39,492 nucleotides of DNA from an uncultured Desulfovibrionaceae bacterium (GTDB lineage: Bacteria; Desulfobacterota; Desulfovibrionia; Desulfovibrionales; Desulfovibrionaceae), in the NCBI GenBank assembly GCA_964369515.1, contig CAYJHK010000001.1:1-39492 (forward strand). Reading direction: 5' to 3'. The notes below the pieces were generated by a model. The model saw only the letters and a program-made list of their open reading frames with translations, searched no databases and was not told where the DNA came from. This document shows, piece after piece, positions 8,990 through 39,157 of this stretch. Numbering within the stretch: the stretch's first letter is position 1; each line of letters opens with the position of its first letter. Position numbers and translations under genes: made by a program.

Positions 8990-9637
8990 ATGTTAAATGT
9001 CACAGAACTCCTGGAGAAAATCAAGGCTTCACCCTATGAGGAAGTGTTTATAAATGCGCCGCATACAGGCATTGTTACCTTTGCAAATGTAAGTGAAGGT
9101 AGCAAGGTGTATGGGCCTCAAGGCATGTGGAAAGAAAATCCCGGTTCCAAACTGGTTACTATTGAGCGTGAGCATAATCCAAAACCCATCAATGCGCCTG
9201 AAAAAGGTGAAGTATGTGCTATACATAAAGAACTCGAAGGTAAATTTGTGGAGGCAGGAACGCATCTTTTAACGGTACGACATTTTTTAACCAAGAATGA
9301 AGTAGTGCAAAAAATATTGAAACAAACCTTGCACCTTTTCAAAGCTCCAGAGCGTGCAAAATATTATTTTACGCCGGAAATTGACAAAAAAATACGTGCG
9401 TCCGGTTCGCAAGCAGTGTCCGTTTCCGATGGCATGGAGCTATTCATTATGTCACGCATGAAACGAGAAGCACCATTGCACTATAACGGGCCAAACGGTA
9501 TTATTTATGCCATATACTTCAAACACACGGAAAATGTAGATGCAGAGCAAGCATTGATTGGCGTTTGTCCGCCGGATCAGCTGGCTGCCATTGAAGAAGT
9601 GGTCTTGCGTGTACAGACAGAATGGCGGGAAAATTAA
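8990..9637 (+). CDS. hypothetical protein with two biotinyl/lipoyl-like hybrid-barrel repeats; candidate atypical BCCP
   Basis: The C-terminal repeat VSDGMELFIMSRMKREAPL..GIIYAIYFKHTENVDAEQALIGV has BCCP spacing with a Met-Lys at codon 158. The N-terminal repeat lacks it. The gene sits directly after the BC and CT genes. Confidence 0.5.
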   Translation: MLNVTELLEKIKASPYEEVFINAPHTGIVTFANVSEGSKVYGPQGMWKENPGSKLVTIEREHNPKPINAPEKGEVCAIHKELEGKFVEAGTHLLTVRHFLTKNEVVQKILKQTLHLFKAPERAKYYFTPEIDKKIRASGSQAVSVSDGMELFIMSRMKREAPLHYNGPNGIIYAIYFKHTENVDAEQALIGVCPPDQLAAIEEVVLRVQTEWREN

Positions 9638-9643
9638 GATATT

Positions 9644-9979
9644 ATGGGAAAGGCACTACAAATTAGGGTTTCGGCCGTGACGTGGGATGAAAATTTACCT
9701 ACAAAACTTTGGCCACAACTTATGGAACTGGCAGAAAGTATTCCAAGCTCCGAGTCAAGGCTTGGGGTTGTGGAATTGGTTTATCGTTTGCATGATGGTT
9801 TACAATTTATGAAGTGGAGCGAAAAGCGTGTTGCTGCCCTTGGCGAAAATATTCAAAACGCCATGAAAGTTGTCAAAGACTTGGAGTCGGCGCTTGCTGA
9901 TTGGGATCCACGCAAAGCCAACAGCCTAAGCGATGCCCTCGAAGATATTTTACATACTTTAGAAGACCGTTTTTGTTGA
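9644..9979 (+). CDS. hypothetical protein (111 aa, helical-looking, no recognisable motif)
   Basis: ORF packed 6 nt after the previous gene on the same strand. No family recognised. Confidence 0.55.
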   Translation: MGKALQIRVSAVTWDENLPTKLWPQLMELAESIPSSESRLGVVELVYRLHDGLQFMKWSEKRVAALGENIQNAMKVVKDLESALADWDPRKANSLSDALEDILHTLEDRFC

Positions 9980-10025
9980 TAAAGTCAAACAAATACAGTT
10001 TACCATATAATAAAAGGAGCTATTT

Positions 10026-10628
10026 ATGTTAAATAAAGTGCAACTTATCGGCCGTCTTGGAGCCGATCCCGAATTGAAATATTTGCAAAACGGTACCCCT
10101 ATGTGCAACTTTAGAGTTGCCACCGATGAATATTATAACGACAAGGAAGGAAATAGAGTCCAACAAACTGAATGGCATAGAGTTACTGTATTTCAACGCA
10201 GTGCAGAAAATTGCGGCAGGTACTTGTCTAAAGGTTCGCTTGTATATGTGGAAGGATCTTTGCAAACACGAAAATGGCAAGACCAACAGGGAAATGATCG
10301 TTACTCGACAGATATTAGAGCACAAAAAGTTCAGTTTCTTGATAGAAAAGGCGAAGGCGGCGGACAAGGTGGTCAAAACTGGCAAGGCGGACAGGGCGGA
10401 CAAAACTGGCAGGGCGGTCAAGGCGGACAGAGCGGTCAAGGCGGCGGCTGGCAAGACGGACAAGGCGGTGGCTGGCCGTCTGAAGCTGACAGCTATGGCA
10501 GCGAAAGCTTCCCTCAACAAAATCAAGCCAGACAACAAAGTGGTGGTGGCAGCACAGGCGGCGGTCAAGTACAAGATGGCTCACCATTTCCTTCCGAAGC
10601 CAGCGATATGGACAAATTTCCCTTTTAG
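10026..10628 (+). CDS. ssb: single-stranded DNA-binding protein
   Basis: OB-fold N-terminus MLNKVQLIGRLGADPELKY...TEWHRV. Gly/Gln-rich tail and aromatic-acidic tip DMDKFPF. RBS AAGGAG upstream. Confidence 0.93.
   Translation: MLNKVQLIGRLGADPELKYLQNGTPMCNFRVATDEYYNDKEGNRVQQTEWHRVTVFQRSAENCGRYLSKGSLVYVEGSLQTRKWQDQQGNDRYSTDIRAQKVQFLDRKGEGGGQGGQNWQGGQGGQNWQGGQGGQSGQGGGWQDGQGGGWPSEADSYGSESFPQQNQARQQSGGGSTGGGQVQDGSPFPSEASDMDKFPF
10359..10439 (+). repeat. three tandem 27-nt repeats inside the ssb tail (GGQGGQNWQ x2, GGQGGQSGQ)
   Basis: Read directly from the translation and nucleotides. Further degenerate GGGW units follow. Confidence 0.85.
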
Positions 10629-10681
10629 AGGAAAGGCTTCTTGATATAGAAATTTTAAGCATAAGTAAGGATATTACTACC

Positions 10682-10987
10682 ATGACAGAAAAAACTCCCC
10701 CCTTAAAAGTGATAGCCATAGTTGAAGCTAAGGATGGCGAGCGTGAGCTTGTGCGCTCTTCGTGCATTGATCTTATTGAACCTACCCGTGCAGAAGCTGG
10801 CTGCCAGCAATATGTACTCCATGAAGACAATGAAAATAAAAATATTTTCGCGTTTTATGAAACATGGGATAGTAAAGCTGCGCTTGAAAGCCATTTGCAA
10901 AGTGCACACTTTAAGCGTTTCGGAGAGGTAACAGCCAATAGCGTAGCTAATGTGCAAATACACCAACTAGCCGAATATCCAGCATAA
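10682..10987 (+). CDS. ABM-domain (antibiotic biosynthesis monooxygenase / YgiN-like) protein
   Basis: 101 aa. Ferredoxin-like ABM pattern (IVEAKDG...FYETWDSKAALESHLQSAHFKRF). Confidence 0.75.
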   Translation: MTEKTPPLKVIAIVEAKDGERELVRSSCIDLIEPTRAEAGCQQYVLHEDNENKNIFAFYETWDSKAALESHLQSAHFKRFGEVTANSVANVQIHQLAEYPA

Positions 10988-11040
10988 ATTTTTCTGCGCA
11001 TTAAATTATATAAGAAAATAATTGCGTAGAGTTCTTGCAA

Positions 11041-11070
11041 GGGGAAAAACTTTGTTACAAGTTTTTCCCC
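11041..11070. terminator. perfect 12-bp hairpin between convergent genes (bidirectional terminator candidate)
   Basis: GGGGAAAAACTT-tgttac-AAGTTTTTCCCC. No clean U-tract on either side. Confidence 0.5.
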
Positions 11071-11102
11071 TAAAATATGGAAAAGTGTACTCTGACTTGT
11101 TC

Positions 11103-11870
11103 CTAGCCAAAAACTCGGCCAAAATACTCTTCTATCTCATCTTCTTGTACGGATGCAGGATAGCTTACGGAAGCATATCCATCGCCCGAAAAACTACGAT
11201 CAATTTCCACCAGTAGGTGTACCGTATCTCCTTCAAGGATGAAGCTCAGTTCCACCTCATTGATAGTGCGTGTAGCCCAGCTAAAGATGCCGGCTGAGGC
11301 AGGGCGCAGTTCAATTTCTTGGTAAACCCCCGAAGAACTAGAAAAACTTGGCGTACTTAAATACCCTTTCTCCACGTCAACTTTCTGCACTTGAAAGCCT
11401 TTTTCCAAAAATTTATTGATCATCATTTCCACGGCCGGATGCGGCAAGACCGTAAGGTAGTCACGGTCATCGCTGTCAACTCCCCATTCAATGTCAAGTT
11501 CGGTATGAATCCAAACTTTGGTTTCATTTTTTTTGGTAGTTATGGCAGTTATGGGTGTTTCGGACGGTAGTTGTATACTAAAAGGTATTTCATATTTTTG
11601 CTTTGCTTCAACCTTCATGGGTTGATTGACCTGAATTTTTCCAATATCCATGTTAATATGGTAGGTTTCTTTTTCGCCGTCAGACTCCCTCTCGGCTTTG
11701 GCACGGGTTCTCACAGAAATTGTTATGTTATTAATATCTTGGTCTACTTTTCCGCCTTGAATATGCACAACACCTTCAACAATATCGCCTTGCATTAGGG
11801 TCATATTTTTTAAAACTGTATCAACTTTTGCGCTGCCGATACCAACTTTAGCCAATAATTTATCAAACAT
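11103..11870 (-). CDS. SpoOM-family (Spo0M-like) protein
   Basis: N-terminus MFDKLLAKVGIGSAKVDTVL is the typical SpoOM start. I placed the start at ATG 11870 rather than the upstream TTG at 11930. Confidence 0.75.
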   Translation of the reverse strand: MFDKLLAKVGIGSAKVDTVLKNMTLMQGDIVEGVVHIQGGKVDQDINNITISVRTRAKAERESDGEKETYHINMDIGKIQVNQPMKVEAKQKYEIPFSIQLPSETPITAITTKKNETKVWIHTELDIEWGVDSDDRDYLTVLPHPAVEMMINKFLEKGFQVQKVDVEKGYLSTPSFSSSSGVYQEIELRPASAGIFSWATRTINEVELSFILEGDTVHLLVEIDRSFSGDGYASVSYPASVQEDEIEEYFGRVFG

Positions 11871-12350
11871 AATCTTATCCTCGTGCTTTGTTTTTTGTTC
11901 CAAATAATGCATTTTCCCCAGCCTTTTCAAAAAATAATATATTTTTGTTTAAATGACAACTATTTTCATAGCCGCAGATACAATGCGAACATGACACGAA
12001 TCTCTATTGCCAGATTATAATCCAAATAAATTTGGCGTTAAGCTCCTCAAACAATAACATACACAAATTACATACTTTTCTTTCGCATAATTTTCTTGTT
12101 AAAATTGGAGATTAACGTTAATTAGAAATGGAGGAAAAAGAGTCATACTTTATTGTAAGTATGCCTTCATAACTATTTGATAAATTACTTTCAATCGTCC
12201 GAAACATAAGAACAAGTAATGCTACTTGTTTATGAAGAATACTCCTTCACTTAAGAAAATGTGCGGCGAATAAAAATTTAATTGCATTGTTTTGTAGTGT
12301 ATTTTAAGTCGAGAATACAGTGTTGAGAACAATTTAAGGAAGAAGTACTT

Positions 12351-12908
12351 ATGTCAAAATTTAAAAAAATTTTTATGGTTTTGAGCGTTATAATGGGGCT
12401 ACACATGCTAAGCATTTTTTGCTTTGCCATGGAAACCACGCCAAGTCACAAGCTTATGCCTTTGCGTTTTAATCAAAAAAAAGCAACAATCACTCTTTAT
12501 CCAAGGGATGCAGACTTGCGTTACGCCGACAATGTCATTGTGGAACCAAAATCTGCACCTTATAATCTTGGCGGATGGCGCACCGATAATACGGTTGCTT
12601 TTCCCCTTGAAATTAAAGAATCCGGAGAATATATTGTAAATATTTACTATAGCAAGGATAAGTCGGTCGGCTCAACAGGAGAACTTAGAATAGGCGGCGT
12701 ATCGGATTTAAGTATTAATTTACAAGCATATGACTATATTGATGTCAACGTACCATTTACCGGAAATTCTTGGTCAACATATAAAACAACTGTTCTTGGA
12801 AGTCTAAAATTACCACAAGGAAAAGTATATCTTGTGTTTATGGATCAAAAAAACAACGCCGGTCAATATGTGATGAATTTACGGGAAGTTAGACTGGAAA
12901 AAAAATAA
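12351..12908 (+). CDS. secreted protein, possible carbohydrate-binding-module-like beta-sandwich
   Basis: N-terminal signal-like hydrophobic segment (KKIFMVLSVIMGLHMLSIFCFA). RBS AAGGAAG. The CBM-like call rests only on a loose pattern (YKTTVLGSLKLPQGKVYLVF). Confidence 0.6.
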   Translation: MSKFKKIFMVLSVIMGLHMLSIFCFAMETTPSHKLMPLRFNQKKATITLYPRDADLRYADNVIVEPKSAPYNLGGWRTDNTVAFPLEIKESGEYIVNIYYSKDKSVGSTGELRIGGVSDLSINLQAYDYIDVNVPFTGNSWSTYKTTVLGSLKLPQGKVYLVFMDQKNNAGQYVMNLREVRLEKK

Positions 12909-12944
12909 TAAATTTAAGATGATGATTACTCATTTCCTCTTGAC

Positions 12945-12985
12945 GGGGAAGGGGACTCGCCCGGTTGCGCAAAGTCCTCTTCCCC
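12945..12985. terminator. G/C-clamped hairpin between convergent genes
   Basis: GGGGAAGGGGACT ... AGTCCTCTTCCCC (one mismatch) with a 15-nt loop. Confidence 0.45.
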
Positions 12986-13009
12986 AAAAAGATGATGAAT
13001 AATTGACTG

Positions 13010-15103
13010 TTAACTGTTCTTCAAATTCTCTACCAGAGCAGCAAGTTGCTGTGCCTGTTCAGTCAGGGATGCAACAGCTTGCGTTGCTTCATTCATGGCG
13101 TTAACGGTATTTGTTGCTATATTGGTCACGGTCATGATGGATTGGGCAATTTCATCAGATGTGGCTGATTGTTGTTCACTGGCTGTAGCAATGGCTCGAA
13201 TTTCATCGGCACTGTGTTCTGCCATCTCCAAAATACCCTGCAAAGCATGTCCGCCTTCTATGGCAAGTTCCGTAGCTTCTTCAATGCGTGCCACTGCTGT
13301 ATCCACTTGCTGAACGTTGACTTCAGTGCTTTGCTGAATGGCATTAATGGCATTGGCAACATCGGTGGTGGATGAGATGGTTTTTTCTGCAAGCTTGCGT
13401 ACTTCATCGGCAACAACAGCAAATCCACGTCCGGCTTCACCGGCTCTTGCAGCTTCAATGGCGGCGTTGAGCGCAAGCAAGTTGGTTTGGTCGGCGATAT
13501 CAGAAATAACACTCATAACCGCACTGATTGATTGCGCATGGCTGGCAAGCTCGCTCATATTTTGGCGCAATTTCAACGATTCATCCTTAACATGCGTCAT
13601 GGAGACTTGGCATTTTTGGGTGATGTTTGCACCGTCAATGGCCTTAGCCTTGGTATTGTCGGCAAGTTCGGCACTGGTGCCGGAGTTTCTGGCCACTTCC
13701 AGCACGGTACCATTCATTTCGTCCATAGCTGTGGCTGTTTCTGTCATTCGTGCCGATTGTTCTTCCGCACCTGAGGTGGACATTTCAATCTGTGCTGAAA
13801 GTTGTTCGGAAGCAGATGCAATATTATTGACAATGCCTTCAAGCTTTGTCACTGCAATCAAGATATTTTTTCTGCTTTCTTCAGCTTCTGCCGCCGATTT
13901 CTCAGCTTGTTTTGTAGCTATGGCCGCATTGTCGGCAGCAACTTGTGCTTCCTTGCTCTTTTCTTCGGATTGAACTACCATAGCAGCAAGATTATTGATC
14001 ATCGCTCTAAAAGCAGCACCTAGGTTTGAAAACTCGTCTTCACGCTTTAAGGCAGCATCAATCTGTGCGTCTTGTTCAGCGGTCAACTTTAAGTTGCCTT
14101 CAGCCACATAGGTTGCGATGTTGGCACTTTGCGAAACGACAACCACCACTTTTTTGATAACAAAATAAACAATAAGCGCCACAATAAATACTATACCTAT
14201 GCTGATAAATGCAAGTATCAGAGTGATTCCATTGGATGTCGTATAAAAATCGCTTTCATCGGTTTCTATGCCCACAATCCATTTTGTGGTGGGCAACTCT
14301 GCAAAATGGGTAAGCTTATCCACGCCTTCCCACTCGTAACGGGTAATGCCGTTTTTTTCGGCCAATACCGTACGAATATATTCGTAAATGCTGTTATCTT
14401 TACCGATAAGCTCCGGAAAGCTTTTTTCCATCAACATTATACCATCGGCATCCACCAAGAAAACACTGGAGGAAGGCATAAGCGTAACTGATTTAATGGT
14501 ATCATCGGCAACGGCATTAAGGTCTACCACAAGCAACAATACACCGTCGGCAAGTTCGTTAGACCCATCTACCGTAATGGGTGAAGTAACCATAATACTT
14601 AGCTTATTTGTAGTTTTAGACATGTTGGTCTTGAAATTGGCCTTACCGCTAAAGGCTTCCACAACGCTTGGGTACCTGCTGACGTCCACTCGAGCCGAAC
14701 TGGGACTGGATGCGGCAATTGTTTTACCGTCCTTTGCCACGATAGCGGCAGCCACAACGTCGGGAAAATCTTCGCACAGTTCAGCGAGCGTTTCTTCGGT
14801 TATCTTTTTTCTGGCAGTAAAGTCATAATCAGAGTCTCGTGCTTGTCCCAAGGAATTGGCCCGTGCGGTGAAATCTTCAATGTCTTGATCGCTATCCAAC
14901 ATATCGGCAAGAGCTATGACATTTTTAAAGATATTATCAATTTCAGAAGCTTGCTTTTTGGCAAACTCAAGTAATTGGATATCCGATGTTTTATACAGTC
15001 CGCTTGAAGTAAGTTGCGCTGCCATAAACGTAAGTACGGCAAAGCCCAAAATAATGGGGATTAAGGTAAAAAGTAATACCTTTCCGAGGAGCTTTAGTTT
15101 CAT
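13010..15103 (-). CDS. methyl-accepting chemotaxis protein (TM, Cache-like periplasmic sensor, TM, HAMP, MCP signalling domain)
   Basis: Invariant hairpin [37 protein letters not shown]. Start moved to ATG 15103 because AAGGA lies 8 nt upstream of it. Confidence 0.92.
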
Positions 15104-15201
15104 ATTCACCATCCTTTTTTAGATAAACTGGTAATAAAATAAACAGAAGACGCTTTAAGCTTATTTGCGGCAAGTCTTAAAGCCCTGTTGAACAAAATAT
15201 A

Positions 15202-15228
15202 CAATCGGAATTTTACTCAAAATCTTTA
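15202..15228 (-). promoter_or_regulatory. putative sigma-28-type promoter for the MCP gene
   Basis: The minus strand reads TAAAGATT-N11-TCCGATTG, against consensus TAAAGTTT-N11-GCCGATAA. About 100 nt upstream of the MCP start. Confidence 0.4.
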
Positions 15229-15273
15229 GGCGAACGGAGAGCAATACTAAAAGCTTTGCACAATTCAAAAAGG

Positions 15274-15356
15274 CATGGATTGCATCAAAGCTTCGCTCCT
15301 CGCAATGACTTGATTTTATAACGAAAGCCATTGCAAGCGCAGCGAAGCAATCCATG
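15274..15356. repeat. 83-bp imperfect palindrome (REP-like element)
   Basis: CATGGATTGC...GCTTCGCT..CGCAATGAC / GCCATTGCAAGCGCAGCGAAGCAATCCATG. Shares the CGCAATG/GCAATGGATTGC core with the array at 25698-25837. Confidence 0.7.
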
Positions 15357-15546
15357 TATTTTGTCAATTCCAGAAATTGCGCAGAGGTCTCATATTGTAA
15401 TTTTTATTGCCACTATGCCACAATTTTGATTAGGTTTTACACACTTAAGCAAGTAAAATCCCTTGTAAGCAAAACCTTTACAGTACGCTGTTATTGCTAT
15501 ATAAAAATTGACATAAAACAATTCCATTTCATTTGAGAGGTCTTTT

Positions 15547-16077
15547 ATGCTCAAACATGTATTTGTAGCCATAAGTCTTGACGGATATATTGCCGATGCA
15601 CAAAATGGCGTTGAATGGCTCAATGCCTACCCTCAAGATTTAGGGGAAAATTCTGCCTTCAACGTTTTTATGGGCAGTATGGACGCGCTCATCATGGGTC
15701 GGAACACCTTTGAAGCTGTGCACTCATTCCAACAATGGCCATACACAATACCGGTTTGGGTCATGAGCAAAACGCTTGCATCTTTACCTGAAGGATACAA
15801 TGGAAAAGCTACGCTTTGCTCTGATAACATAGAAGTCACGCTGAAAAAAGCCTCAGAGCAAGGCTTTAAAAATCTTTATATTGATGGCGGTAGGCTTGTC
15901 CAAAGCTTTTTACAAAAAGACCTCATTGATAGCATTACTCTTACACGTATCCCTATAATTCTTGGTGGCGGAGTTCCGCTTTTTGGGGAACTTGCACAAA
16001 CGTCTACCTTTGAGCATATCCACACACAAGTTCTTGAAGGTGGTTTGGTTATGAGCGGTTATGCACGAGTGCGTTGA
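15547..16077 (+). CDS. dihydrofolate-reductase-like / RibD C-terminal domain family reductase
   Basis: FVAISLDGYIA, LIMGRNTFE and YIDGGRLVQSFL motifs; 176 aa. Confidence 0.8.
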   Translation: MLKHVFVAISLDGYIADAQNGVEWLNAYPQDLGENSAFNVFMGSMDALIMGRNTFEAVHSFQQWPYTIPVWVMSKTLASLPEGYNGKATLCSDNIEVTLKKASEQGFKNLYIDGGRLVQSFLQKDLIDSITLTRIPIILGGGVPLFGELAQTSTFEHIHTQVLEGGLVMSGYARVR

Positions 16078-16107
16078 AAAACATCGTTTGCATCATTACC
16101 CGACAAT

Positions 16108-16306
16108 TTATCGGTCCATTGAAAAAATCTGTTCCAAAAAGTTTTTTAATAAAATGTTAACTTTATCGTTTTCCTACAGGTTGTTCAAAAAGTGTAAGAT
16201 ACGAGGAAGACGAAGTTTTTTTGCGTAGGGAGTGTATACAGACATACATGACCGGAGCAAAAAACGAGTCTGACGAAGTAGATTGCACTTTTTCAAAAGC
16301 CTGTTA
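16108..16306 (+). repeat. 199-bp repeat A, copy 1 (copy 2 at 39172-39370)
   Basis: Hand alignment is gapless and nearly identical. It contains an internal imperfect inverted repeat GTTCAAAAAGTGTAAGATAC / GTAGATTGCACTTTTTCAA. Confidence 0.85.
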
Positions 16307-16310
16307 CGAC

Positions 16311-16346
16311 CTCTGCTCAATTCATGGTTATTTGAATTGAGCAGAG
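16311..16346. terminator. perfect 14-bp hairpin, bidirectional terminator candidate
   Basis: CTCTGCTCAATTCA-tggttatt-TGAATTGAGCAGAG, followed by TTTATAATT on the plus strand. Lies 25 nt beyond the stop of the minus-strand PPIase gene. Confidence 0.6.
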
Positions 16347-16370
16347 TTTATAATTCATTATTTTTGAAGA

Positions 16371-16793
16371 CTATTTCACTGCAACAATTTCAATTTCAAA
16401 GGTGAGCGATTGCCCGGCAAGAGGATGATTTGCATTAAGAACGATGCTTTCATCATTAACTTGGAAAATTTCCACATTCATATCGCCTTCTTCGTTGGAA
16501 AGCGAAAGTTGCATCCCAACTTCCGGCTTTATTTCCTCGGGAAGGTCTGCACGGGCTACTTCAAAAAGAAGTCCTTCGTCCATTTCTCCATAAGCTTCTT
16601 CGGGGGGGATAGTAACGGTAACAACATCCCCGGCTTCCTTTCCCATGAGGGCTTTTTCAAAACCTTCGATGAGCATTTTCTTACCCATGGTAAATTCCAA
16701 GGGTTCACGCTCACGGGAAGAATCAAAAACAGTACCGTCGGCTAGGGTTCCTGTATAATGTACCGACAGCTGATCATCATTTTTAATGGGCAT
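16371..16793 (-). CDS. FKBP-type peptidyl-prolyl cis-trans isomerase with insert-in-flap chaperone domain (SlyD/SlpA-like, no His-rich tail)
   Basis: VHYTGTLADGTVFDSS, LIEGFEKALMGK and NHPLAGQSLTFEIEIV motifs. Start placed at ATG 16793 (MPIKNDD). Confidence 0.88.
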   Translation of the reverse strand: MPIKNDDQLSVHYTGTLADGTVFDSSREREPLEFTMGKKMLIEGFEKALMGKEAGDVVTVTIPPEEAYGEMDEGLLFEVARADLPEEIKPEVGMQLSLSNEEGDMNVEIFQVNDESIVLNANHPLAGQSLTFEIEIVAVK

Positions 16794-17213
16794 AGTTTTT
16801 CTCCAATATTTTTGTGTTTGCCTTACGAAAAAGCACACTTCATTAAAAAGTGAATACCATCGTTTTCCTCATATTGCAAATAATAAGAAATAATCTATTT
16901 ATTAAGCTTTTATGAAGATGCGCTAAACAAACTTCCCCACTCTGACTTTTCTTTCAAAAAAATGCAAGCATATTCACTCAACATTATTTTTTATTGATGT
17001 GAAAAAATGGAAGAATGGAGCTTTTCGACACTTGATTTTTATGCTGATAAAGCTTAATGATAGTCTTGATTTTGCTTACTCTATGTAAGATAAATATTAC
17101 AGAGACATACATAATTTGTGGTATCAATTTTAGACCATTGCGGATGCGAGTTTCGAATTAACCTTCGATTTTATGCATGTATTTAATACACAAATCCCAT
17201 GAAATAACAATAA

Positions 17214-20873
<3,660 letters not shown>

Positions 20874-33066: not shown

Positions 33067-33657
33067 ATGAGCTGGGACAATTTTACCAAAAGCGTACAAA
33101 CAGGACTTTCAACAATTTCTTTCCAAACTGAAAACAAAGAGCTTATTCCAGAAGACGCATTCTTGTTTTGGCAAAATTTAGGTGAAAACACAAGAAATAA
33201 CGGGAACAATTTATTCCTGATAGGCAATGGAGCCAGTGCTGCAATGGCAAGTCATTATGCAACAGACCTTGGTAAAAATGCACTTTTAAAAACCCTCACT
33301 TTTTCAGATGCTTCTTTATTAACAGCTCTTGGAAATGATATAGATTTTTCGCATATTTTTTCTGAACCAATTTCTCGCTTGGGACATGCCGGGGATATGT
33401 TGATAACAATTTCAAGCTCAGGAAATTCACCCAATATCATTAGGGCAATAAACACCGCTCGCTCTTTGAATATGATTATTATTACACTTTCAGCTATGAA
33501 AAAAGATAATAAAAGCCGGACTCTTGGAGATTTGAACATATATGCTCCGGTACAAACATATGGGCTTGCAGAAACAATACATGCAGCAATTTTACACCAT
33601 TGGACAGACTGCATGGTTTTATCTTGGAAAAATCATTTGAAGGGTAAATCATGCTAG
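33067..33657 (+). CDS. SIS-domain sugar-phosphate isomerase, GmhA (phosphoheptose isomerase)-like
   Basis: LIGNGASAAMASHYATDLG and GNDIDFSHIFSEPISRLGHAGDMLITISSSGNSPNIIRAINTARSLNMIIITLS align well from memory with E. coli GmhA. Confidence 0.85.
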   Translation: MSWDNFTKSVQTGLSTISFQTENKELIPEDAFLFWQNLGENTRNNGNNLFLIGNGASAAMASHYATDLGKNALLKTLTFSDASLLTALGNDIDFSHIFSEPISRLGHAGDMLITISSSGNSPNIIRAINTARSLNMIIITLSAMKKDNKSRTLGDLNIYAPVQTYGLAETIHAAILHHWTDCMVLSWKNHLKGKSC

Positions 33658-35171
33658 AAGCAGATAAGAAGTATAAAAAAGAACTTGAAAAAATAGCTAA
33701 TATTATAAGTAAGCTACGTAAAGAAGGTAAGAAAATTGTTCTATGTCATGGAGTCTTTGACCTTCTGCATATAGGGCATATCCGCTATTTGCGAGCATCT
33801 AAAAAACTCGGAGATGTCCTTGTTGTTACAATGTCACCGGATCATTACGTTGATAAAGGGCCTGGGCGTCCTGCATTTTCTGAGCACTTACGCTTGGAAG
33901 CAATAGCATCTCTTGATTGCGTAGATTATGCCGCCATCAATGCTTGGGCAACAGCCGAAGAAACTTTACGCCTGCTACGCCCTGATATTTATTCAAAAGG
34001 TTCTGAATTTAAAAACTTAGAAGATGCAACAGGCAAGATTGCCCGTGAAAATAGTGTCGTAGAAGAAATAGGTGCTACAATACACTTTGTGGAAGATATT
34101 GTGTTTTCATCATCAAACCTCATCAATCAATATCTGTCACAATCTTCTGATGAATGTCGTGAATATTTACGGCAATTTAAACAACGCTACACTGACAGCC
34201 AAATTTTTCTTGAACTAAATCGCATGAAATCATTAAATGTGTTGGTGCTTGGTGATATGATTTTAGATGAGTATATTTATTGCTCAGCTCTTGGCGCATC
34301 GTCAAAAGACCCTGTTCTTGCAGTTAATTTTCAATCATCAGAAGTGTTTGCCGGTGGTTCCGCAGCAATAGCCAACCATGTAGCCCAACAAGCCGGCAGT
34401 GTTACACTTTGCTCTGTACTCGGTGATGATAATAAAGAAAATTGGATTCGTGAGCATTTAAATGAAAACATCATCTTTAAACCTTTTTTGCGCCCAAATA
34501 GTCCTACAGTCCGTAAACAACGCATTATGGACGGCTATAGCTTTCAAAAGTTGATTGAAGTTTATCATATGGAGGCTTCGCCCCTCCCCGAAGATATTGA
34601 ACAAGCTATGCAAGCTTGGATATTAGAAGACATACAAAAGTATGACCTTGTAATTGCAGCAGACTTTGGACATGGCTGCATAAGTGCAAAATTAGCAAGT
34701 TTAATCTCAGAACATGCTGAATTTTTAGCAGTAAATACACAAGCCAATGCCGGAAATCGTGGTTACCATACTATTAGCCGCTATCCAAGAGCTGACTTTA
34801 TATCTTTAGCCGGACATGAGATTACTTTGGAATATCGCAATCAAAAAATCACTACAAGTGCAATGATGACAGATTTACAACATCGCCTTTCTTGTCCAAC
34901 TGTACTTGTTACCGAAGGCAGAAAGGGTTGTGCTGTTTTGCGTGAAGATTTTACTCGTGCGCCTTCATTTGCATCTAATGTCATAGACCGCGTCGGTGCA
35001 GGCGATGCCCTTTTTTCAATTGCAGCTATGGGAGCAAGACTAGGATTTCCCATAGATTTAATGGGATTTTGCGGTAATATTGCAGGCTCTCTTGCTGTTG
35101 AAACCATTGGCAATGCCAAAGCTGTCAGTAAAAATGCTATGCTTCGCTATATAACAGCCATTTTAAAGTAG
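33651..35171 (+). CDS. bifunctional nucleotidyltransferase (cytidylyltransferase-fold, N-terminal) / PfkB-family sugar kinase (C-terminal); HldE-like with reversed domain order
   Basis: N-terminal CHGVFDLLHIGHIRYL (HxGH motif). C-terminal LVLGDMILDEYIY and DRVGAGDALFS (PfkB GAGD). Overlaps the upstream gene by 7 nt. Confidence 0.85.
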   Translation: MLEADKKYKKELEKIANIISKLRKEGKKIVLCHGVFDLLHIGHIRYLRASKKLGDVLVVTMSPDHYVDKGPGRPAFSEHLRLEAIASLDCVDYAAINAWATAEETLRLLRPDIYSKGSEFKNLEDATGKIARENSVVEEIGATIHFVEDIVFSSSNLINQYLSQSSDECREYLRQFKQRYTDSQIFLELNRMKSLNVLVLGDMILDEYIYCSALGASSKDPVLAVNFQSSEVFAGGSAAIANHVAQQAGSVTLCSVLGDDNKENWIREHLNENIIFKPFLRPNSPTVRKQRIMDGYSFQKLIEVYHMEASPLPEDIEQAMQAWILEDIQKYDLVIAADFGHGCISAKLASLISEHAEFLAVNTQANAGNRGYHTISRYPRADFISLAGHEITLEYRNQKITTSAMMTDLQHRLSCPTVLVTEGRKGCAVLREDFTRAPSFASNVIDRVGAGDALFSIAAMGARLGFPIDLMGFCGNIAGSLAVETIGNAKAVSKNAMLRYITAILK

Positions 35172-35178
35172 TATATAT

Positions 35179-36141
35179 ATGTCAAGCTATACTTTATTTG
35201 ACCGCAAGCGTTTACGTTTACTCCCATTAAAAGAGCGTAAACATGACCTACACGGAGATATTATTTCACCGTTAAATAAATGTAATGAAATAGAACCGGA
35301 ATTGCAAATCGCAGCAAAAAAACTTATTGCCGCAAAAAAAGCAAATAAAGCTCGCATTTTTCAATGCGGTGCGCATGTCATCCGCTCAGGTGTTCAAAAC
35401 TATCTTTTTGAGCTTATGGAGCAAGGTTTTATTTCCTGCCTTGTTTTTAATGGTGCTTGTGCTATTCATGATTTTGAATTTGCTCTAATCGGAGCAACAA
35501 CTGAATCCGTAGCCACATATATTAAGAATGGTCAATTTGGACTATGGAAAGAAACAGGGCGTTTAAATGATATCATAAATAGTGGCTGGAAAAATGGTCT
35601 CGGCATTGGTGAATCTGTAGCACGTGAAATTGCTAACGGAAATTATGCCTATAAACATTACAGTATTTTTGCAAAAGCTTGGGAGTGTCGCATTCCTATA
35701 ACGGTACATATTGGCATTGGACATGATATCATTCATGAACACCCAAATTGCAATGGAGAAGCTTTAGGCGGTGCAAGCTATACGGATTTTCTTATTTTTA
35801 CAAATGAGCTTGAAAAGTTAGAGCATGGTTGTGTATATACATTTGGGAGTGCAATTATGGCACCGGAAGTCTTTTTAAAAGCTTTGGCCATGGTGCGCAA
35901 TGTTGCAGAGCAAGAAGGACGCAGTATAAAGCAATTCACGTCCTTGGTTTGCGATTTGCAGAATTTACCCCAAAATATACATGAGGAAGCGAAAAAAAAT
36001 GACCCTCGTTACTATTTTCGCCCATGGAAAACATTGCTTTCACGCACAGTATCTGATGGTGGTGAAAGTTTATATGTTTGTGGTAGGCATGAACATACTA
36101 TACCGGCACTTTGGAGTGCAATACAAAGAGAATTAAATTAA
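35179..36141 (+). CDS. deoxyhypusine-synthase-like (DHS-fold) protein, function unknown
   Basis: FQCGAHVIRSGVQNYLFELMEQGFISCLVFNGACAIHDFEFALIG parallels the DHS segment L.G....G.R..I..L......D..VT..G....D...AL as I remember it from archaeal and human DHS. Confidence 0.5.
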   Translation: MSSYTLFDRKRLRLLPLKERKHDLHGDIISPLNKCNEIEPELQIAAKKLIAAKKANKARIFQCGAHVIRSGVQNYLFELMEQGFISCLVFNGACAIHDFEFALIGATTESVATYIKNGQFGLWKETGRLNDIINSGWKNGLGIGESVAREIANGNYAYKHYSIFAKAWECRIPITVHIGIGHDIIHEHPNCNGEALGGASYTDFLIFTNELEKLEHGCVYTFGSAIMAPEVFLKALAMVRNVAEQEGRSIKQFTSLVCDLQNLPQNIHEEAKKNDPRYYFRPWKTLLSRTVSDGGESLYVCGRHEHTIPALWSAIQRELN

Positions 36142-36171: not shown

Positions 36172-37260
36172 TTGTCCACTGATAAAACTCGTGCTGACAA
36201 GTTTCGTATAGACAGCCACAAACTTAATCTACATCCACAACGTGTAGCCGATTGGCTCAACGGGAAGATAATTGCTCCCATATATATGGAAGTGAGTCCA
36301 TCCGGTGCCTGCAATCATCGCTGTTCATTTTGTGGACTTGATTTCATGGGGTATAAGGCTAATTTTTTACCAACTGAGCTTTTTTCTGAACGCTTAGCAG
36401 AAATGGGTGAATATGGACTTAAGTCTATCATGTTTGCCGGTGAGGGCGAGCCACTTTTACATAAAAACATTATTACCCTTTCTGAAAATGCCAAAAAATC
36501 AGGCATCGATATAGCCTTTACGACCAATGCCGTTTTACTTACGCCTGAAAAATCAGAAGAATTACTGCCCATAACGAGCTGGATAAAGGTTAGCTGCAAT
36601 GCCGGCACAAAAGAAAGTTATGCCAAAATTCATGGAACAAATTCTTCTGATTTTGATAAAGTATTAGCTAATATTGAGCAAGCTGTAATTATTCGCAAAA
36701 AACAAAATAGTTCTTGTACTATTGGTATGCAAATGATTTTACTGCCTGAAAACAGAGATTCAGCATTTCAATTTGCACAAAAAATCCGTGGGCTTGGAGT
36801 TGACTATTTAGTTATTAAACCATATTCGCAACATCCGCAAGGTATTTCAAATAATTATGAAAATGTTTGTTATTCAGATTGCGATATACTAGCGCAACAA
36901 CTTGAATCATTAAATACAAATACTTTTAAATGTATTTTTCGTTATGAAACTATGCACCGTCAAGCTATTGGAAAAAAAGCATATAACCGTTGCCAAGCTT
37001 TACCTTTTTGGAGCTATATTGACGCTAAAGGAAATGTTTGGGGTTGCAGTGTTTTTTTAAGCGATGAGAGATTTATATATGGCAATATAAATCGACAAAA
37101 TTTTAAAGAAATTTGGGAAAGTAATGTGCGCAAAAGACATCTTGAATGGATTGCCAACTCCTTTGACGCTTCAAATTGTCGCATAAATTGTCGCATGGAC
37201 GCCATAAATGCTTATCTTTGGGAATTGACCCACCCTAATGCCCATGTAAATTTTATTTAG
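36172..37260 (+). CDS. radical SAM enzyme with C-terminal SPASM/Twitch-like Cys motif
   Basis: CNHRCSFCG (Cx3Cx2C) at 36310-36333. GEGEPLL. C-terminal RCQ...GNVWGCS...YGNI...FKEIW...NCRINCR. TTG start with GGGAG upstream. Confidence 0.85.
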   Translation: MSTDKTRADKFRIDSHKLNLHPQRVADWLNGKIIAPIYMEVSPSGACNHRCSFCGLDFMGYKANFLPTELFSERLAEMGEYGLKSIMFAGEGEPLLHKNIITLSENAKKSGIDIAFTTNAVLLTPEKSEELLPITSWIKVSCNAGTKESYAKIHGTNSSDFDKVLANIEQAVIIRKKQNSSCTIGMQMILLPENRDSAFQFAQKIRGLGVDYLVIKPYSQHPQGISNNYENVCYSDCDILAQQLESLNTNTFKCIFRYETMHRQAIGKKAYNRCQALPFWSYIDAKGNVWGCSVFLSDERFIYGNINRQNFKEIWESNVRKRHLEWIANSFDASNCRINCRMDAINAYLWELTHPNAHVNFI

Positions 37261-37573: not shown

Positions 37574-39157
37574 ATGCCAAACTTTATTTTAGGTATAGAT
37601 TTAGATAATACTCTTATTAATTATAATCAACTTTTTTATAACCTTGCAGTAGAAAGTGAACTTATTGATCTTAATACCCCTGCTAATAAAACAGCAGTGA
37701 GGAATAGGGTACGCAAACTCTATACAGATGCTGAATGGCAAAAATTACAGTGGTATGCTTATGGTAGCTATTTGCACAAAGCATCTTTATTTCCATTTGT
37801 CAGAGATGCTCTAAAATGGCTTACTGAAAGTAATATAAAATTATATATCATTAGCCATAAAACTGAATACGCTGATATTGATAAAGAAAAAACTGTCAGT
37901 TTAAGAGAAAGTGCTTTGAACTTTTTAGAAGAACAGGGGATTTTCTCATTTATACCAAGTGAAAATGTTATCTTTTGTAATAGCATGACTGAAAAATGTG
38001 CTGCTATAGCAAGAGTAAATTGCACCGATTTCATAGATGATTTACCAGAATTTTTAGGACATGATGCCTTTCCAAACTCAGTGCATAAAATTATGTTTTG
38101 CCCGCAAGGCATAGAGTTTCCAAACGTTCATAATTGTTCAATATTACGTAGTTTTAATGCTTTATCGCTTTTCTTTACACCACAAAAAGAAAAAACTCGC
38201 ATTCATGGTGGCAGAAATAGCCGAGTATGGCATTGGCAATCACCTATTGGAGCTGTCGCAATAAAAGATATTTGCTGTGTAGCAGATGACCCTAGGCAAC
38301 GTGATGCCGCAGAGTGGCGTGCATGGTGTTTCTTAGAAGAATACGGGCTAAATAAGCAACCTACTGCATTAATGAGAGATGTTCGATATGAACAGATTAT
38401 TTCAACTTGGATAAATGGTGCAGCAATTAAAACAATTGAAAATAATGACATTGAACAATTATCAGATTTTTTCAAAGAACTTTACGAATTAAGAGAATTC
38501 GCACAGGTATTGCCACCCGCCGCTGATGCTTGTTTTAATTTACGAGCACTGGACATACATATTCAAGAACGTATTGACCGCCTGCTAAACGCTAAACGAG
38601 AACAAAGGTTTGAGCTTGAATATAATAAGCTTAGTGCTTTTTTAAAATGGGAACTTATCCCCATTTATGAAGAGAGCATTAAGCTCAGTTATAAGGCTTA
38701 TGCAGAAAATAACATACTTGTGGATATGGCACTGTCTTCTGAATTATGTATGCCAAGCCCTTCTGATTTTGGTTTGCACAATGCTTTAAGAACAAATGCA
38801 GGCTTAAAATTTATTGATTTCGAATACTTTGGAAAAGATGACCCTGTGAAGTTGATTTGTGATACTATATTACACCCGGCACTGCCCATGACTGAAGCAG
38901 AAAGACAAGATTTCTTTAATATGGTTTGTGAAAAATGCCAGTTCATTGAAATAGATAAAAACTTTATGGTACGCTTTAAATCCCACTTTCCTTTATGGAA
39001 AATTAAATGGGCGTGCATAATTTTGAATGAGTTTTTAAAATCAGGCCAAAAAAGAAGAATAATTGCCAATGAAAGTGAAGTAATTTCATCTGAAATTTTG
39101 CAATTACAACTACAAAAAGCTGAGCAAATGTTACAAAAAAATATGCCATGTTTGTAA
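37574..39157 (+). CDS. fusion of a HAD-like phosphatase domain (N-terminal) and an APH/choline-kinase-fold phosphotransferase domain (C-terminal)
   Basis: HAD motif I ILGIDLDNTL, motif II IISHKT, acidic motif FIDDLPE. Kinase-fold motifs GGRNSRVW...AIKD and PSDFGLHNAL...FIDFEYFGKDDP. Confidence 0.75.
   Translation: MPNFILGIDLDNTLINYNQLFYNLAVESELIDLNTPANKTAVRNRVRKLYTDAEWQKLQWYAYGSYLHKASLFPFVRDALKWLTESNIKLYIISHKTEYADIDKEKTVSLRESALNFLEEQGIFSFIPSENVIFCNSMTEKCAAIARVNCTDFIDDLPEFLGHDAFPNSVHKIMFCPQGIEFPNVHNCSILRSFNALSLFFTPQKEKTRIHGGRNSRVWHWQSPIGAVAIKDICCVADDPRQRDAAEWRAWCFLEEYGLNKQPTALMRDVRYEQIISTWINGAAIKTIENNDIEQLSDFFKELYELREFAQVLPPAADACFNLRALDIHIQERIDRLLNAKREQRFELEYNKLSAFLKWELIPIYEESIKLSYKAYAENNILVDMALSSELCMPSPSDFGLHNALRTNAGLKFIDFEYFGKDDPVKLICDTILHPALPMTEAERQDFFNMVCEKCQFIEIDKNFMVRFKSHFPLWKIKWACIILNEFLKSGQKRRIIANESEVISSEILQLQLQKAEQMLQKNMPCL

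What the first reader, a model, noticed from the sequence alone, without database searches (positions are those of the whole stretch)
35179..36141. Deoxyhypusine-synthase-like protein embedded in a sugar-nucleotide operon
The stretch AAKKLIAAKKANKARIFQCGAHVIRSGVQNYLFELMEQGFISCLVFNGACAIHDFEFALIG mirrors the N-terminal Rossmann-like segment of DHS enzymes as I recall it, position by position. DHS and homospermidine synthases are NAD-dependent aminobutyl transferases acting on spermidine. A homologue between a heptose kinase/nucleotidyltransferase gene and a radical SAM gene is not a context I know for this family. The C-terminal half looks diverged, and I could not identify the catalytic Lys.
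Basis: partly seen in the sequence, partly recalled or inferred. Interest (0 to 1): 0.6.

Follow-up and report, generated by a model that had tools for sequence, protein, structure and literature searches.

The report
DHS-fold enzyme of heptose cassettes
This gene encodes a typical member of a very widespread enzyme family of unknown function (GSU2086 family) that has the deoxyhypusine-synthase fold but always travels with heptose-sugar genes. It may do the heptose epimerase step in the many bacteria that lack the textbook enzyme HldD.

Summary
The ORF at 35179-36141 is real and carries the quoted peptide. It matches NCBIfam NF052581 (GSU2086 family) over its full length (365 bits, cut-off 250). 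An AlphaFold model (pLDDT 97.5) matches the AgrE/ArgZ ornithine-cyclodeaminase domain (Z 20) and deoxyhypusine synthase (DHS; Z 18-19) along the whole chain. It still fails the DHS and cyclodeaminase sequence models, so it is DHS-like, not a DHS.

The heptose context is the rule for this family:
- The domain is found fused to SIS isomerase, PfkB kinase, HAD phosphatase and nucleotidyltransferase domains.
- Housekeeping gmhA lies directly upstream in 17 of 18 extended loci.
- A PfkB kinase lies beside 69 of 80 relatives of the window's clade.
- The radical SAM neighbour recurs in only 11 of 80.

In 401 genomes of the phylum, the family (263) and HldD (90) overlap in only 18.

My best reading is a bound-dinucleotide "hidden redox" heptose(-phosphate) epimerase. 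Here it sits in an AT-rich accessory cassette, while a complete housekeeping ADP-heptose gene set lies elsewhere in the genome. A nickel-pincer cofactor was tested and is unlikely to be obligatory.

This scan has met the family before on other DNA and had already proposed the HldD-replacement idea. No biochemical evidence exists.

The parts
35179..36141 (+). GSU2086-family protein (320 aa), DHS-like dinucleotide-binding fold; this is the finding
   Evidence: NF052581 scores 364.9 bits against a cut-off of 250, covering residues 7-313. AF2 model pLDDT 97.5. Z 20.3 to AgrE and Z 18-19 to DHS.
35311..35493 (+). H97-D98-x-E100. This is the part shared with DHS and with the ArgZ/AgrE cyclodeaminase domain.
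   Evidence: Pfam PF21570 scores 27.2 bits and DS 17 bits here. Profile alignments to ArgZ and 3c2q show the HD(I/F)E motif aligned. hhalign to cyclodeaminase-type sequences gives 95.9% over residues 36-178.
35695..35745 (+). Family-specific motif P173-x-T-V-H177-x-x-x-G181-x-D183-x-x-H186-x-H188-P189, after the third strand. It is a candidate catalytic or ligand-binding His/Asp cluster and is not shared with the cyclodeaminase relatives.
   Evidence: These are invariant or nearly invariant columns in alignments A1 and A2. The hhalign match to the cyclodeaminase type ends at residue 178.
36019..36033 (+). Conserved R281-P-W-K284-T motif about 36 residues from the C-terminus. K284 and K234 are the only family-wide conserved lysines. 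Whether either is equivalent to the catalytic Lys of DHS is unresolved.
   Evidence: Alignments A1 and A2. The low-confidence C-terminal part of the hhalign match to DHS.
33067..33657 (+). GmhA-like SIS isomerase, a divergent paralogue
   Evidence: SIS_2 E 3e-14. The gmhA models score 83-88 bits, below their cut-offs of 209-276. A housekeeping gmhA lies elsewhere in the genome on contig C68.
33651..35171 (+). HldE-like bifunctional protein with reversed domain order (nucleotidyltransferase N-terminal, PfkB kinase C-terminal)
   Evidence: CTP_transf_like covers residues 32-140 and PfkB covers 196-490. The rfaE domain I and II models score below their cut-offs. This is the commonest neighbour of the window's clade: a kinase lies within 1.7 kb in 69 of 80 loci.
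36172..37260 (+). Radical SAM/SPASM enzyme, an accessory tailoring gene of the cassette
   Evidence: Radical_SAM E 1e-18 and SPASM E 5e-7. Orthologues at 44-61% identity sit in 11 of 80 related loci and in G037.
37574..39157 (+). HAD-like domain fused to a kinase-like domain. It belongs to the cassette although it is set off by about 310 nt.
   Evidence: Only weak Pfam and NCBIfam hits. Homologues follow the cassette in 6 of 80 loci. L074 has the same five-gene order as the window.

Best explanation
Shown: the gene encodes a full-length member of the uncharacterised GSU2086 family. This is a DHS-like (Rossmann-type, dinucleotide-binding) fold protein that forms a constant extra component of heptose-phosphate and nucleotide-heptose gene sets. 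Here it belongs to clade II of the family. It sits in an AT-rich accessory five-gene cassette: GmhA-like isomerase, nucleotidyltransferase::kinase, this protein, radical SAM/SPASM, HAD::kinase. The genome also carries a separate complete housekeeping ADP-L,D-heptose gene set (gmhA, hldE halves, gmhB, hldD). Inferred mechanism: like its structural relatives DHS and the AgrE-type ornithine cyclodeaminase, it keeps a tightly bound nicotinamide-type dinucleotide. It uses that cofactor for a redox-neutral 'hidden' oxidation and re-reduction, here of a sugar hydroxyl. The conserved His/Asp/Glu residues would act as acid and base. The net reaction I think most likely is an epimerisation of a heptose phosphate, probably at C6 of D-glycero-D-manno-heptose 7-phosphate, directly after GmhA. 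That is the job HldD does at the ADP-sugar level. In this cassette the product would then be activated by the nucleotidyltransferase::kinase and further tailored by the radical SAM enzyme. Rough odds: family membership, fold and heptose-pathway role 0.9; bound-dinucleotide redox chemistry 0.55; epimerase that functionally replaces HldD 0.4.
For: Family and fold. Pathway link by fusion: the domain occurs fused to CTP_transf_like, SIS, HAD hydrolase, PfkB, and ARMT1 plus nucleotidyltransferase domains in different proteins. Pathway link by neighbourhood: a gmhA-like gene lies directly upstream in 25 of 30 short loci, and housekeeping-type gmhA in 17 of 18 extended loci of the phylum. One locus reads gmhA-GSU2086-hldE1-hldE2-gmhB. 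A PfkB kinase lies within 1.7 kb in 69 of 80 loci from about ten phyla. Complementary distribution with HldD in the same 401 genomes: family-positive 263, HldD-positive (over cut-off) 90, both 18, neither 66. By taxonomic family (family hits vs HldD hits): f7 12/12 vs 0/12, f29 13/15 vs 0/15, f28 0/12 vs 12/12, own family 1/13 vs 12/13. In f15 the single genome without the family is the single one with HldD. Outside the phylum, only 5 of 41 carrier genomes have HldD. Tn-seq in G. sulfurreducens gives GSU2085 (hldE), GSU2086 and GSU2087 (gmhA) the same envelope-type fitness defect (PMC5585712). The closest characterised relatives (DHS; AgrE ornithine cyclodeaminase, solved with NAD+) work by transient substrate oxidation on a bound dinucleotide; this is established knowledge (entry titles; PMC13524815).
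Against: No biochemical data exist for any family member, and the cofactor and substrate are not shown. The anti-correlation with HldD is largely between taxonomic families, so the number of independent events is modest. Eighteen genomes have both genes, including this one. Roughly 30 genomes with gmhA have neither. Organisms without HldD could simply use D,D-heptose. In this genome HldD is present, so the window's copy is not needed for LPS heptose. The closest enzymes oxidise C-N bonds, not C-OH bonds. The conserved His cluster (H66, H97, H177, H186, H188) could instead bind a metal. An earlier scan report with the same idea was later rated at 45/100.
Confidence: 0.45

Rival explanations
1. 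It is a bound-NAD(P) oxidoreductase or dehydratase-type tailoring enzyme. It makes a keto or deoxy heptose intermediate for later tailoring steps (radical SAM, ThDP-dependent E1-like enzymes, transferases), not an epimer.
For: The window's clade sits in tailoring cassettes. These carry radical SAM/SPASM genes (11 of 80 loci). In G037 the cassette also has E1 alpha/beta ThDP enzymes, a GT2 and an LPG_synthase_TM protein. The dinucleotide-binding fold fits.
Against: Clade I sits next to plain housekeeping gmhA with no tailoring genes in view. A net oxidation would need cofactor exchange, which DHS-type enzymes with a buried cofactor do not usually do (inference). This reading does not explain the complementarity with HldD.
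Confidence: 0.2
2. [quoted passage not shown] Those enzymes are its closest structural relatives.
For: The best structural and profile matches are to the AgrE/ArgZ/LOR-SDH cyclodeaminase domain, with a shared HD(I/F)E motif. TIGR00300 is named as nickel-pincer-dependent (PMC13524815). In the phylum, 256 of 263 family-positive genomes have LarC, against 104 of 138 family-negative ones. Twenty-nine of the 41 LarC-negative genomes use HldD. The window's own genome has LarB, LarC and LarE.
Against: LarC is in 90% of the phylum anyway. Ten of 41 carrier genomes from other phyla lack LarC. These include all four Phycisphaerae/Sedimentisphaerales genomes (5.5-6.3 Mb), which hold the window's nearest named relatives. 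No larB, larC or larE gene lies in the flanks of 129 family loci, 1.5 Mb in all. The bacterial and archaeal DHS-family sequences fetched here carry an HD pair at the aligned position (after the second strand), so the HD part of the motif is not specific to the cyclodeaminases.
Confidence: 0.1
3. It has no catalytic role. It is a nucleotide-binding (NAD or ADP-heptose) regulatory or scaffolding subunit of the GmhA/HldE enzymes.
For: It is fused or adjacent to every enzyme of the pathway rather than to one step. The dinucleotide pocket of sirtuin and DHS-type folds could hold an ADP-sugar (Z 10-11 to sirtuins).
Against: About 35 invariant or nearly invariant polar and glycine positions persist across relatives of 32-65% identity, including five His and five Asp/Glu at strand ends. 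This pattern is typical of an active site. The Tn-seq defect equals that of gmhA and hldE.
Confidence: 0.1
4. It performs lysine Schiff-base chemistry on a keto-sugar such as sedoheptulose 7-phosphate (aldolase or transaldolase-like), echoing the covalent Lys intermediate of DHS.
For: Conserved K234 and K284 (RPWK motif) lie at about the same distance from the C-terminus as the catalytic Lys of DHS. The pathway starts from a ketose phosphate.
Against: The alignment of the Lys region to DHS is unreliable. No aldolase-type partner or C-C chemistry is implied by the clade I context.
Confidence: 0.07
5. It is a true deoxyhypusine or homospermidine synthase acting on polyamines.
For: The fold and N-terminal segment resemble DHS.
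Against: The Pfam DS model scores below threshold (17 vs 27 bits). Genuine PF01916 proteins exist separately in several carrier genomes. There are no polyamine or eIF5A/EF-P genes in context, and the neighbourhood is invariably heptose genes.
Confidence: 0.02

Closest known systems
NCBIfam NF052581 'GSU2086 family protein' (type member Geobacter sulfurreducens GSU2086, between hldE GSU2085 and gmhA GSU2087)
   Same: It matches over its full length above the curated cut-off. It has the same conserved residues and the same heptose-gene neighbourhood.
   Different: The window's protein belongs to a distinct clade (II). It is only 33-41% identical to the gmhA-adjacent clade I proteins of its own phylum. 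It is 50-65% identical to proteins of Planctomycetota, Acidobacteriota, Nitrospirota and others. The family has a name but no known function.
AgrE/ArgZ C-terminal domain and LOR/SDH-type ornithine cyclodeaminase (TIGR00300; PDB 6lrf, 6lrg, 6juy, 3c2q)
   Same: These are the best structural matches (Z 19-20). Profile E-value is 6e-8. They share the first half of the Rossmann domain and the HD(I/F)E motif. They presumably share the principle of transient oxidation on a bound dinucleotide.
   Different: TIGR00300 scores 19 bits against a cut-off of 411. The N-terminal LOR/SDH domain is missing. Homology is detectable only for residues 36-178, and the His/Asp cluster after the third strand is family-specific. 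The context is sugar, not arginine or ornithine metabolism.
Deoxyhypusine synthase / homospermidine synthase (PF01916)
   Same: The whole chain has the same fold (Z 18-19 with 245-264 aligned residues). hhalign probability is 96%.
   Different: It scores below the Pfam threshold. No recognisable EAxSWGK-type lysine motif is present (motif recalled from memory). It has no polyamine context, and true DHS-family genes coexist in some carrier genomes.
HldD (RfaD/GmhD), ADP-L-glycero-D-manno-heptose 6-epimerase (SDR, TIGR02197)
   Same: This is a proposed functional analogy only. Both are found in heptose pathways, and the two distributions are largely mutually exclusive. HldD also works through a bound NADP and a keto intermediate (established knowledge).
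   Different: The folds are unrelated (SDR versus DHS-like). The window's own genome has a genuine HldD (375 bits). The substrate level (ADP-sugar versus sugar phosphate) may differ.

Membership tests
NCBIfam NF052581 GSU2086 family | Full-length HMM match above the curated cut-off (250 bits) | tested here: met
   364.9 bits, E 3.9e-109, residues 7-313 against profile positions 2-300 of 301
NCBIfam NF052581 GSU2086 family | Family-invariant residues present (G64, H66, H97, D98, E100, T107, E109, G118, H177, G181, D183, D203, G223, E230, K234, D259, R281, R289) | tested here: met
   All are listed as invariant or nearly invariant columns, numbered on P0001 itself
NCBIfam NF052581 GSU2086 family | Neighbourhood of heptose-pathway genes (SIS isomerase, PfkB kinase, nucleotidyltransferase, HAD) | tested here: met
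   Window genes 33067-35171 and 37574-39157. The same is seen in 69 of 80 and 17 of 18 related loci
Deoxyhypusine synthase (PF01916) | Pfam DS model at or above the gathering score | tested here: not met
   17.0 bits against 27, only residues 44-105
Deoxyhypusine synthase (PF01916) | DHS fold over the whole chain | tested here: met
   Z 18.9 (8put, 264 aligned residues, rmsd 3.9) and Z 18.3 (1dhs)
Deoxyhypusine synthase (PF01916) | Catalytic lysine in the C-terminal SWGK-type motif (motif recalled from memory; visible in the DHS alignment) | tested here: inconclusive
   hhalign places the DHS 'sWGK' opposite residues ~268-273 with very low confidence. P0001 has no WGK. The conserved lysines are K234 and K284
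Deoxyhypusine synthase (PF01916) | Polyamine or eIF5A-type functional context | tested here: not met
   The context is heptose genes in all loci examined
Nickel-pincer-dependent ornithine cyclodeaminase (TIGR00300) / ArgZ-AgrE C-terminal part | HMM above cut-off, including the N-terminal LOR/SDH domain | tested here: not met
   19.1 bits against 410.8. Only residues 47-107 match, and hhalign covers positions 179-309 of the 404-residue cyclodeaminase-type template
Nickel-pincer-dependent ornithine cyclodeaminase (TIGR00300) / ArgZ-AgrE C-terminal part | Dependence on LarB/C/E (co-occurrence or adjacency) | tested here: inconclusive
   LarC is present in 256 of 263 carriers in the phylum, but in 90% of all genomes there. 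Ten of 41 carriers elsewhere lack LarC. No lar gene is adjacent in 129 loci
HldD heptose 6-epimerase (TIGR02197, SDR) | SDR fold and HMM match | tested here: not met
   The fold is DHS-like. The genuine HldD of this genome is on contig C74. Only a functional analogy is proposed.
HldD heptose 6-epimerase (TIGR02197, SDR) | Heptose C6 epimerase activity | not testable with these tools
   This needs an enzyme assay. Only the complementary distribution supports it

The most novel reading that the evidence does not exclude
The GSU2086 family is the unrecognised heptose epimerase of most bacteria that lack HldD. It would be the first sugar-acting enzyme of the DHS fold. It would convert D,D- to L,D-heptose at the sugar-phosphate level, right after GmhA, by hidden redox on a buried dinucleotide. 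In lar-positive lineages that cofactor could even be a nickel-pincer dinucleotide. This would give an HldD-independent route to LPS heptose and, run in reverse, a route for heptose catabolism.
Probability: 0.35. Interest if true: 0.8.

Novelty: new variant of a known kind. Interest (0 to 1): 0.6.

Why it matters
Heptose nucleotides build the LPS inner core, capsules and S-layer glycans, and ADP-heptose is an innate-immune signal. The textbook pathway has four or five enzymes. This family is present in about two thirds of sampled Desulfobacterota genomes, and it also occurs in Acidobacteriota, Planctomycetota, Nitrospirota, Chloroflexota and others. It is a constant, strongly conserved extra component with no assigned reaction. 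If it is the HldD substitute, it fills an annotation gap in thousands of genomes. It would also extend the chemistry of the DHS fold from amines to sugars, and it would explain the envelope phenotype of GSU2086 mutants in Geobacter. If it is something else, the heptose pathway has a step nobody has described.

Tried and rejected
- A true DHS or homospermidine synthase is rejected. The Pfam DS model is below threshold, the context is wrong, and real PF01916 genes coexist in carrier genomes.
- A substitute for the GmhB phosphatase is rejected. HAD domains are fused to the family domain, gmhB sits in the same operon in L050, and the window's genome has a GmhB-like gene.
- Obligate nickel-pincer dependence was tested three ways. 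Co-occurrence inside the phylum was suggestive, co-occurrence outside it was contradicted, and adjacency to lar genes was absent. I downgraded this to 0.1.
- A specific partnership with the radical SAM gene holds in only 11 of 80 loci.
- The wide structural search found no match to any sugar-modifying family. The second tier of hits is sirtuins, ThDP-enzyme middle domains and transhydrogenase dIII, that is, the DHS-like NAD/FAD superfamily.
- A single-protein scan of genome contigs found nothing; the alignment-based scan worked.
- The AgrE structure paper and the Desguin 2025 NPAD paper are not held. Cofactor-contact residues therefore could not be transferred.
- Literature searches found no paper on the family's function, and none linking heptose with nickel-pincer enzymes.
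Full report
**1. Observation**

Window 35179-36141 (+) is an intact 320-codon ORF with an ATG start. The ORF starts 7 nt after an HldE-like gene (33651-35171), in which the nucleotidyltransferase domain comes before the PfkB kinase domain. It ends 30 nt before a radical SAM/SPASM gene (36172-37260). A GmhA-like SIS gene (33067-33657) opens the string, and a HAD-like::kinase-like gene (37574-39157) closes it. The cassette has 35-39% G+C, against 41-48% in the rest of the window.

**2. What the protein is**

- Pfam gives only marginal hits on residues 44-108: ArgZ-like_C_2nd at 27.2 bits and DS at 17 bits (threshold 27).
- NCBIfam places the whole protein in NF052581, 'GSU2086 family protein', at 364.9 bits (cut-off 250).
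- The family is very large. More than 7,600 90%-identity clusters match in the word-indexed search. In the 50%-identity library, 1,961 representatives match at E<=1e-3.
- A 57-sequence alignment (A1) has a dense set of invariant or nearly invariant positions. They include H66, H97, D98, E100, T107, E109, H177, D183, D203, E230, K234, D259, R281 and R289, plus many glycines.

**3. Fold**

- AlphaFold2 run on A1 gives pLDDT 97.5 and pTM 0.93.
- Foldseek ranks LOR/SDH 3c2q first, then AgrE/ArgZ, then DHS, with E 3e-10 to 1e-5.
- VIA-align gives Z 20.3 for AgrE 6lrf (220 aligned residues), Z 19.2 for 3c2q, Z 18.9 for DHS 8put (264 aligned residues) and Z 18.3 for 1dhs. These matches span model residues ~35-320.
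- The Foldseek-independent wide search gives the same first tier. Its second tier (Z 9-11) is sirtuins, ThDP-enzyme middle domains and transhydrogenase dIII, which is the classical DHS-like NAD/FAD-binding superfamily. No sugar-modifying family appears.
- Profile comparisons agree. A1 against the PDB hits ArgZ/AgrE at E 6e-8 and 3c2q at 2.5e-4. hhalign against seven TIGR00300-type sequences gives 95.9% over residues 36-178. hhalign against nine PF01916 sequences gives 96.0% over 256 columns.

The DHS-like reading is therefore right, and the C-terminal half keeps the fold. The protein is still not a DHS or a cyclodeaminase by their own models. The DHS lysine motif is not reliably aligned; the family's own conserved lysines are K234 and K284 (RPWK).

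**4. Context is the family's signature**

*(a) Fusions.* Among the 50%-identity representatives, the domain is fused in different proteins to several partners:
- CTP_transf_like nucleotidyltransferase (P0122, P0192, P0244, P0265, P0269)
- SIS (P0125, P0163, P0267)
- HAD hydrolase (P0126, P0128, P0169)
- PfkB kinase (P0153)
- ARMT1 phosphatase plus nucleotidyltransferase (P0175, P0182)

*(b) Within the window's phylum.* The family model is over its cut-off in 257 of 401 sampled genomes, but in only 1 of 13 other genomes of the window's own taxonomic family. In 25 of 30 short loci a gmhA-like gene lies directly upstream, and in 17 of 18 extended loci it is a housekeeping-type gmhA. One locus reads gmhA-GSU2086-hldE1-hldE2-gmhB. 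These proteins are only 33-41% identical to the window's.

*(c) Other phyla.* An alignment of the window's close relatives (A2) retrieved 80 loci at 50-59% identity. They come from Acidobacteriota, Planctomycetota, Nitrospirota, Chloroflexota, Armatimonadota, Thermodesulfobacteriota and Magnetococcales, plus a Parcubacteria MAG and a Methanomicrobia MAG.

| Neighbour of the family gene | Loci (of 80) |
|---|---|
| PfkB kinase within 1.7 kb, same strand | 69 |
| PfkB kinase directly adjacent | 53 |
| Nucleotidyltransferase domain | 29 |
| SIS gene within 4 kb | 38 |
| Orthologue of the window's radical SAM gene (>=40% identity) | 11 |
| HAD::kinase gene | 6 |

L074 repeats the window's five-gene order.

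*(d) Two clades.* A tree splits the family, with support 1.0, into clade I (gmhA-adjacent) and clade II (kinase-adjacent). The window and G037 are in clade II, and the window's nearest named neighbours are Phycisphaerae/Sedimentisphaerales.

*(e) G037.* This is the one relative in the window's own taxonomic family that has the gene. Its cluster reads GSU2086::nucleotidyltransferase fusion, nucleotidyltransferase::PfkB, radical SAM/SPASM, ThDP-dependent E1 alpha and beta, GT2, an LPG_synthase_TM protein and a SIS gene.

**5. This genome does not need the cassette for LPS heptose**

Elsewhere in the 2.37-Mb, ~80%-complete assembly there is a full housekeeping set:

| Gene | Contig | Score |
|---|---|---|
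| gmhA | C68 | 195.7 bits |
| HldE kinase half | C323 | 267.5 bits |
| HldE adenylyltransferase half | C161 | 158.8 bits |
| GmhB-like | C14 | 140.6 bits |
| HldD (genuine) | C74 | 375 bits |

The window cassette is therefore a second, divergent and probably laterally acquired set. It most plausibly makes a modified nucleotide-heptose.

**6. Clue to function: complementarity with HldD**

In the same 401 genomes, 263 have the family (E<=1e-3) and 90 have HldD over its cut-off. Eighteen have both and 66 have neither. I compared the two lists by hand.

| Taxonomic family | Genomes with GSU2086 family | Genomes with HldD |
|---|---|---|
| f7 | 12/12 | 0/12 |
| f29 | 13/15 | 0/15 |
| f9 | 9/12 | 0/12 |
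| f15 | 11/12 | 1/12 |
| f28 | 0/12 | 12/12 |
| f1 (own family) | 1/13 | 12/13 |

In f15, the one genome with HldD is the one genome without the family. gmhA is present in 350 of 401 genomes, and f13 lacks gmhA, HldD and the family alike. Among 41 carrier genomes from other phyla, only 5 have HldD. In G. sulfurreducens, Tn-seq gave GSU2085 (hldE), GSU2086 and GSU2087 (gmhA) similar defects of -3.1 to -3.7 (PMC5585712).

Shared operon membership plus a complementary distribution is the classical pattern of non-orthologous displacement. The closest characterised relatives use a buried dinucleotide for transient oxidation. HldD does exactly this kind of chemistry at C6 of ADP-heptose (established knowledge).

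I therefore propose a hidden-redox epimerase. It probably acts on a heptose phosphate directly after GmhA. Three observations point to the sugar-phosphate level:
- clade I genes directly abut gmhA;
- only 29 of 80 clade II loci have a nucleotidyltransferase nearby;
- earlier scan notes describe nucleotide-free, catabolic-looking modules that contain the family.

Caveats:
- Related genomes are not independent.
- Eighteen genomes have both genes, and about 30 genomes with gmhA have neither.
- Bacteria without HldD may simply use D,D-heptose.
- I recall that G. sulfurreducens LPS contains L,D-heptose, but I could not verify this in the library.

**7. Cofactor test (nickel-pincer)**

TIGR00300 is now named as nickel-pincer dependent (PMC13524815 cites Desguin 2025), so I tested Lar dependence.

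- *For:* LarC is present in 256 of 263 family-positive genomes and 104 of 138 family-negative genomes of the phylum. Of the 41 LarC-negative genomes, 29 have HldD and only 7 have the family, and 6 of those 7 are fragmented MAGs of 91-94% completeness. The window's own genome has LarB, LarC and LarE.
- *Against:* LarC is in 90% of the phylum regardless. Ten of 41 carriers in other phyla lack it, including all four Phycisphaerae/Sedimentisphaerales genomes. No lar gene lies within the flanks of 129 family loci. The bacterial and archaeal DHS-family sequences fetched here also carry an HD pair at the position aligned to the HD(F/I)E motif.

Obligate nickel-pincer dependence is therefore unlikely. 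Facultative use in lar-positive lineages is not excluded.

**8. Comparison with what is known, and novelty**

The protein is a member of a catalogued but uncharacterised family. No paper in the library assigns a function. ESM Atlas neighbours are auto-named 'deoxyhypusine synthase family' or ArgZ-like, mostly from Planctomycetota.

This scan has met the family repeatedly on other DNA. One earlier follow-up proposed the same HldD-replacement idea and was later rated 45/100. I reached the idea from my own counts before reading that note. It is not independent confirmation.

**9. Verdict**

- The gene is an ordinary member of the family, so the open question lies with the family, which is widespread and functionally unknown.
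- The mechanism (bound-dinucleotide epimerase replacing HldD) is an inference at about 0.4.
- What this report adds: the two-clade structure, the fusion catalogue, the quantitative HldD complementarity, the negative Lar tests, and the low frequency (14%) of the radical SAM partnership.

Noticed in passing
L046 (G037:C13:47000-66900), 9459-19364: The only relative in the window's own taxonomic family that has the gene carries a larger cluster. It holds a GSU2086::nucleotidyltransferase fusion, nucleotidyltransferase::PfkB, radical SAM/SPASM and ThDP-dependent E1 alpha and beta subunits. It also holds a GT2, an unassigned 406-aa protein, an LPG_synthase_TM protein and a SIS gene. This suggests a branched or extended heptose delivered to a lipid-linked glycan.
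   Followed up: partly
L072, L076, L079, L083, L091, L093, L098, L104, L108, L139, L144 (downstream of the family gene): Many clade II loci carry two paralogous nucleotidyltransferase domains in tandem. One is free-standing or fused to the GSU2086 domain. The other is fused in front of the PfkB kinase.
   Followed up: no
L122 3065-7945; L140 1554-7945: Two loci (a Syntrophorhabdaceae MAG and Ornatilinea apprima) carry both family clades within a few kb of each other. Each clade is beside its own SIS or kinase partner.
   Followed up: no
phylum sample: LarC (nickel-pincer cofactor synthesis) is found in 360 of 401 sampled genomes of the phylum. It is missing from whole small-genome families (f28 0/12, f4 0/2, f2 0/1), and those families are also the ones that use HldD.
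   Followed up: partly
P0253, P0184 (50%-identity representatives): The family domain also occurs in proteins carrying XylR-like periplasmic-binding plus AraC HTH domains, and in one carrying GH38 mannosidase fragments. This hints at sugar-utilisation contexts, or at gene-call fusions.
   Followed up: no
L091 and L082: Cassette copies at 55-58% identity sit on contigs binned as a Methanomicrobia archaeon and as a Parcubacteria bacterium. This could be lateral transfer or mis-binning.
   Followed up: no
I did not re-examine them.
   Followed up: no
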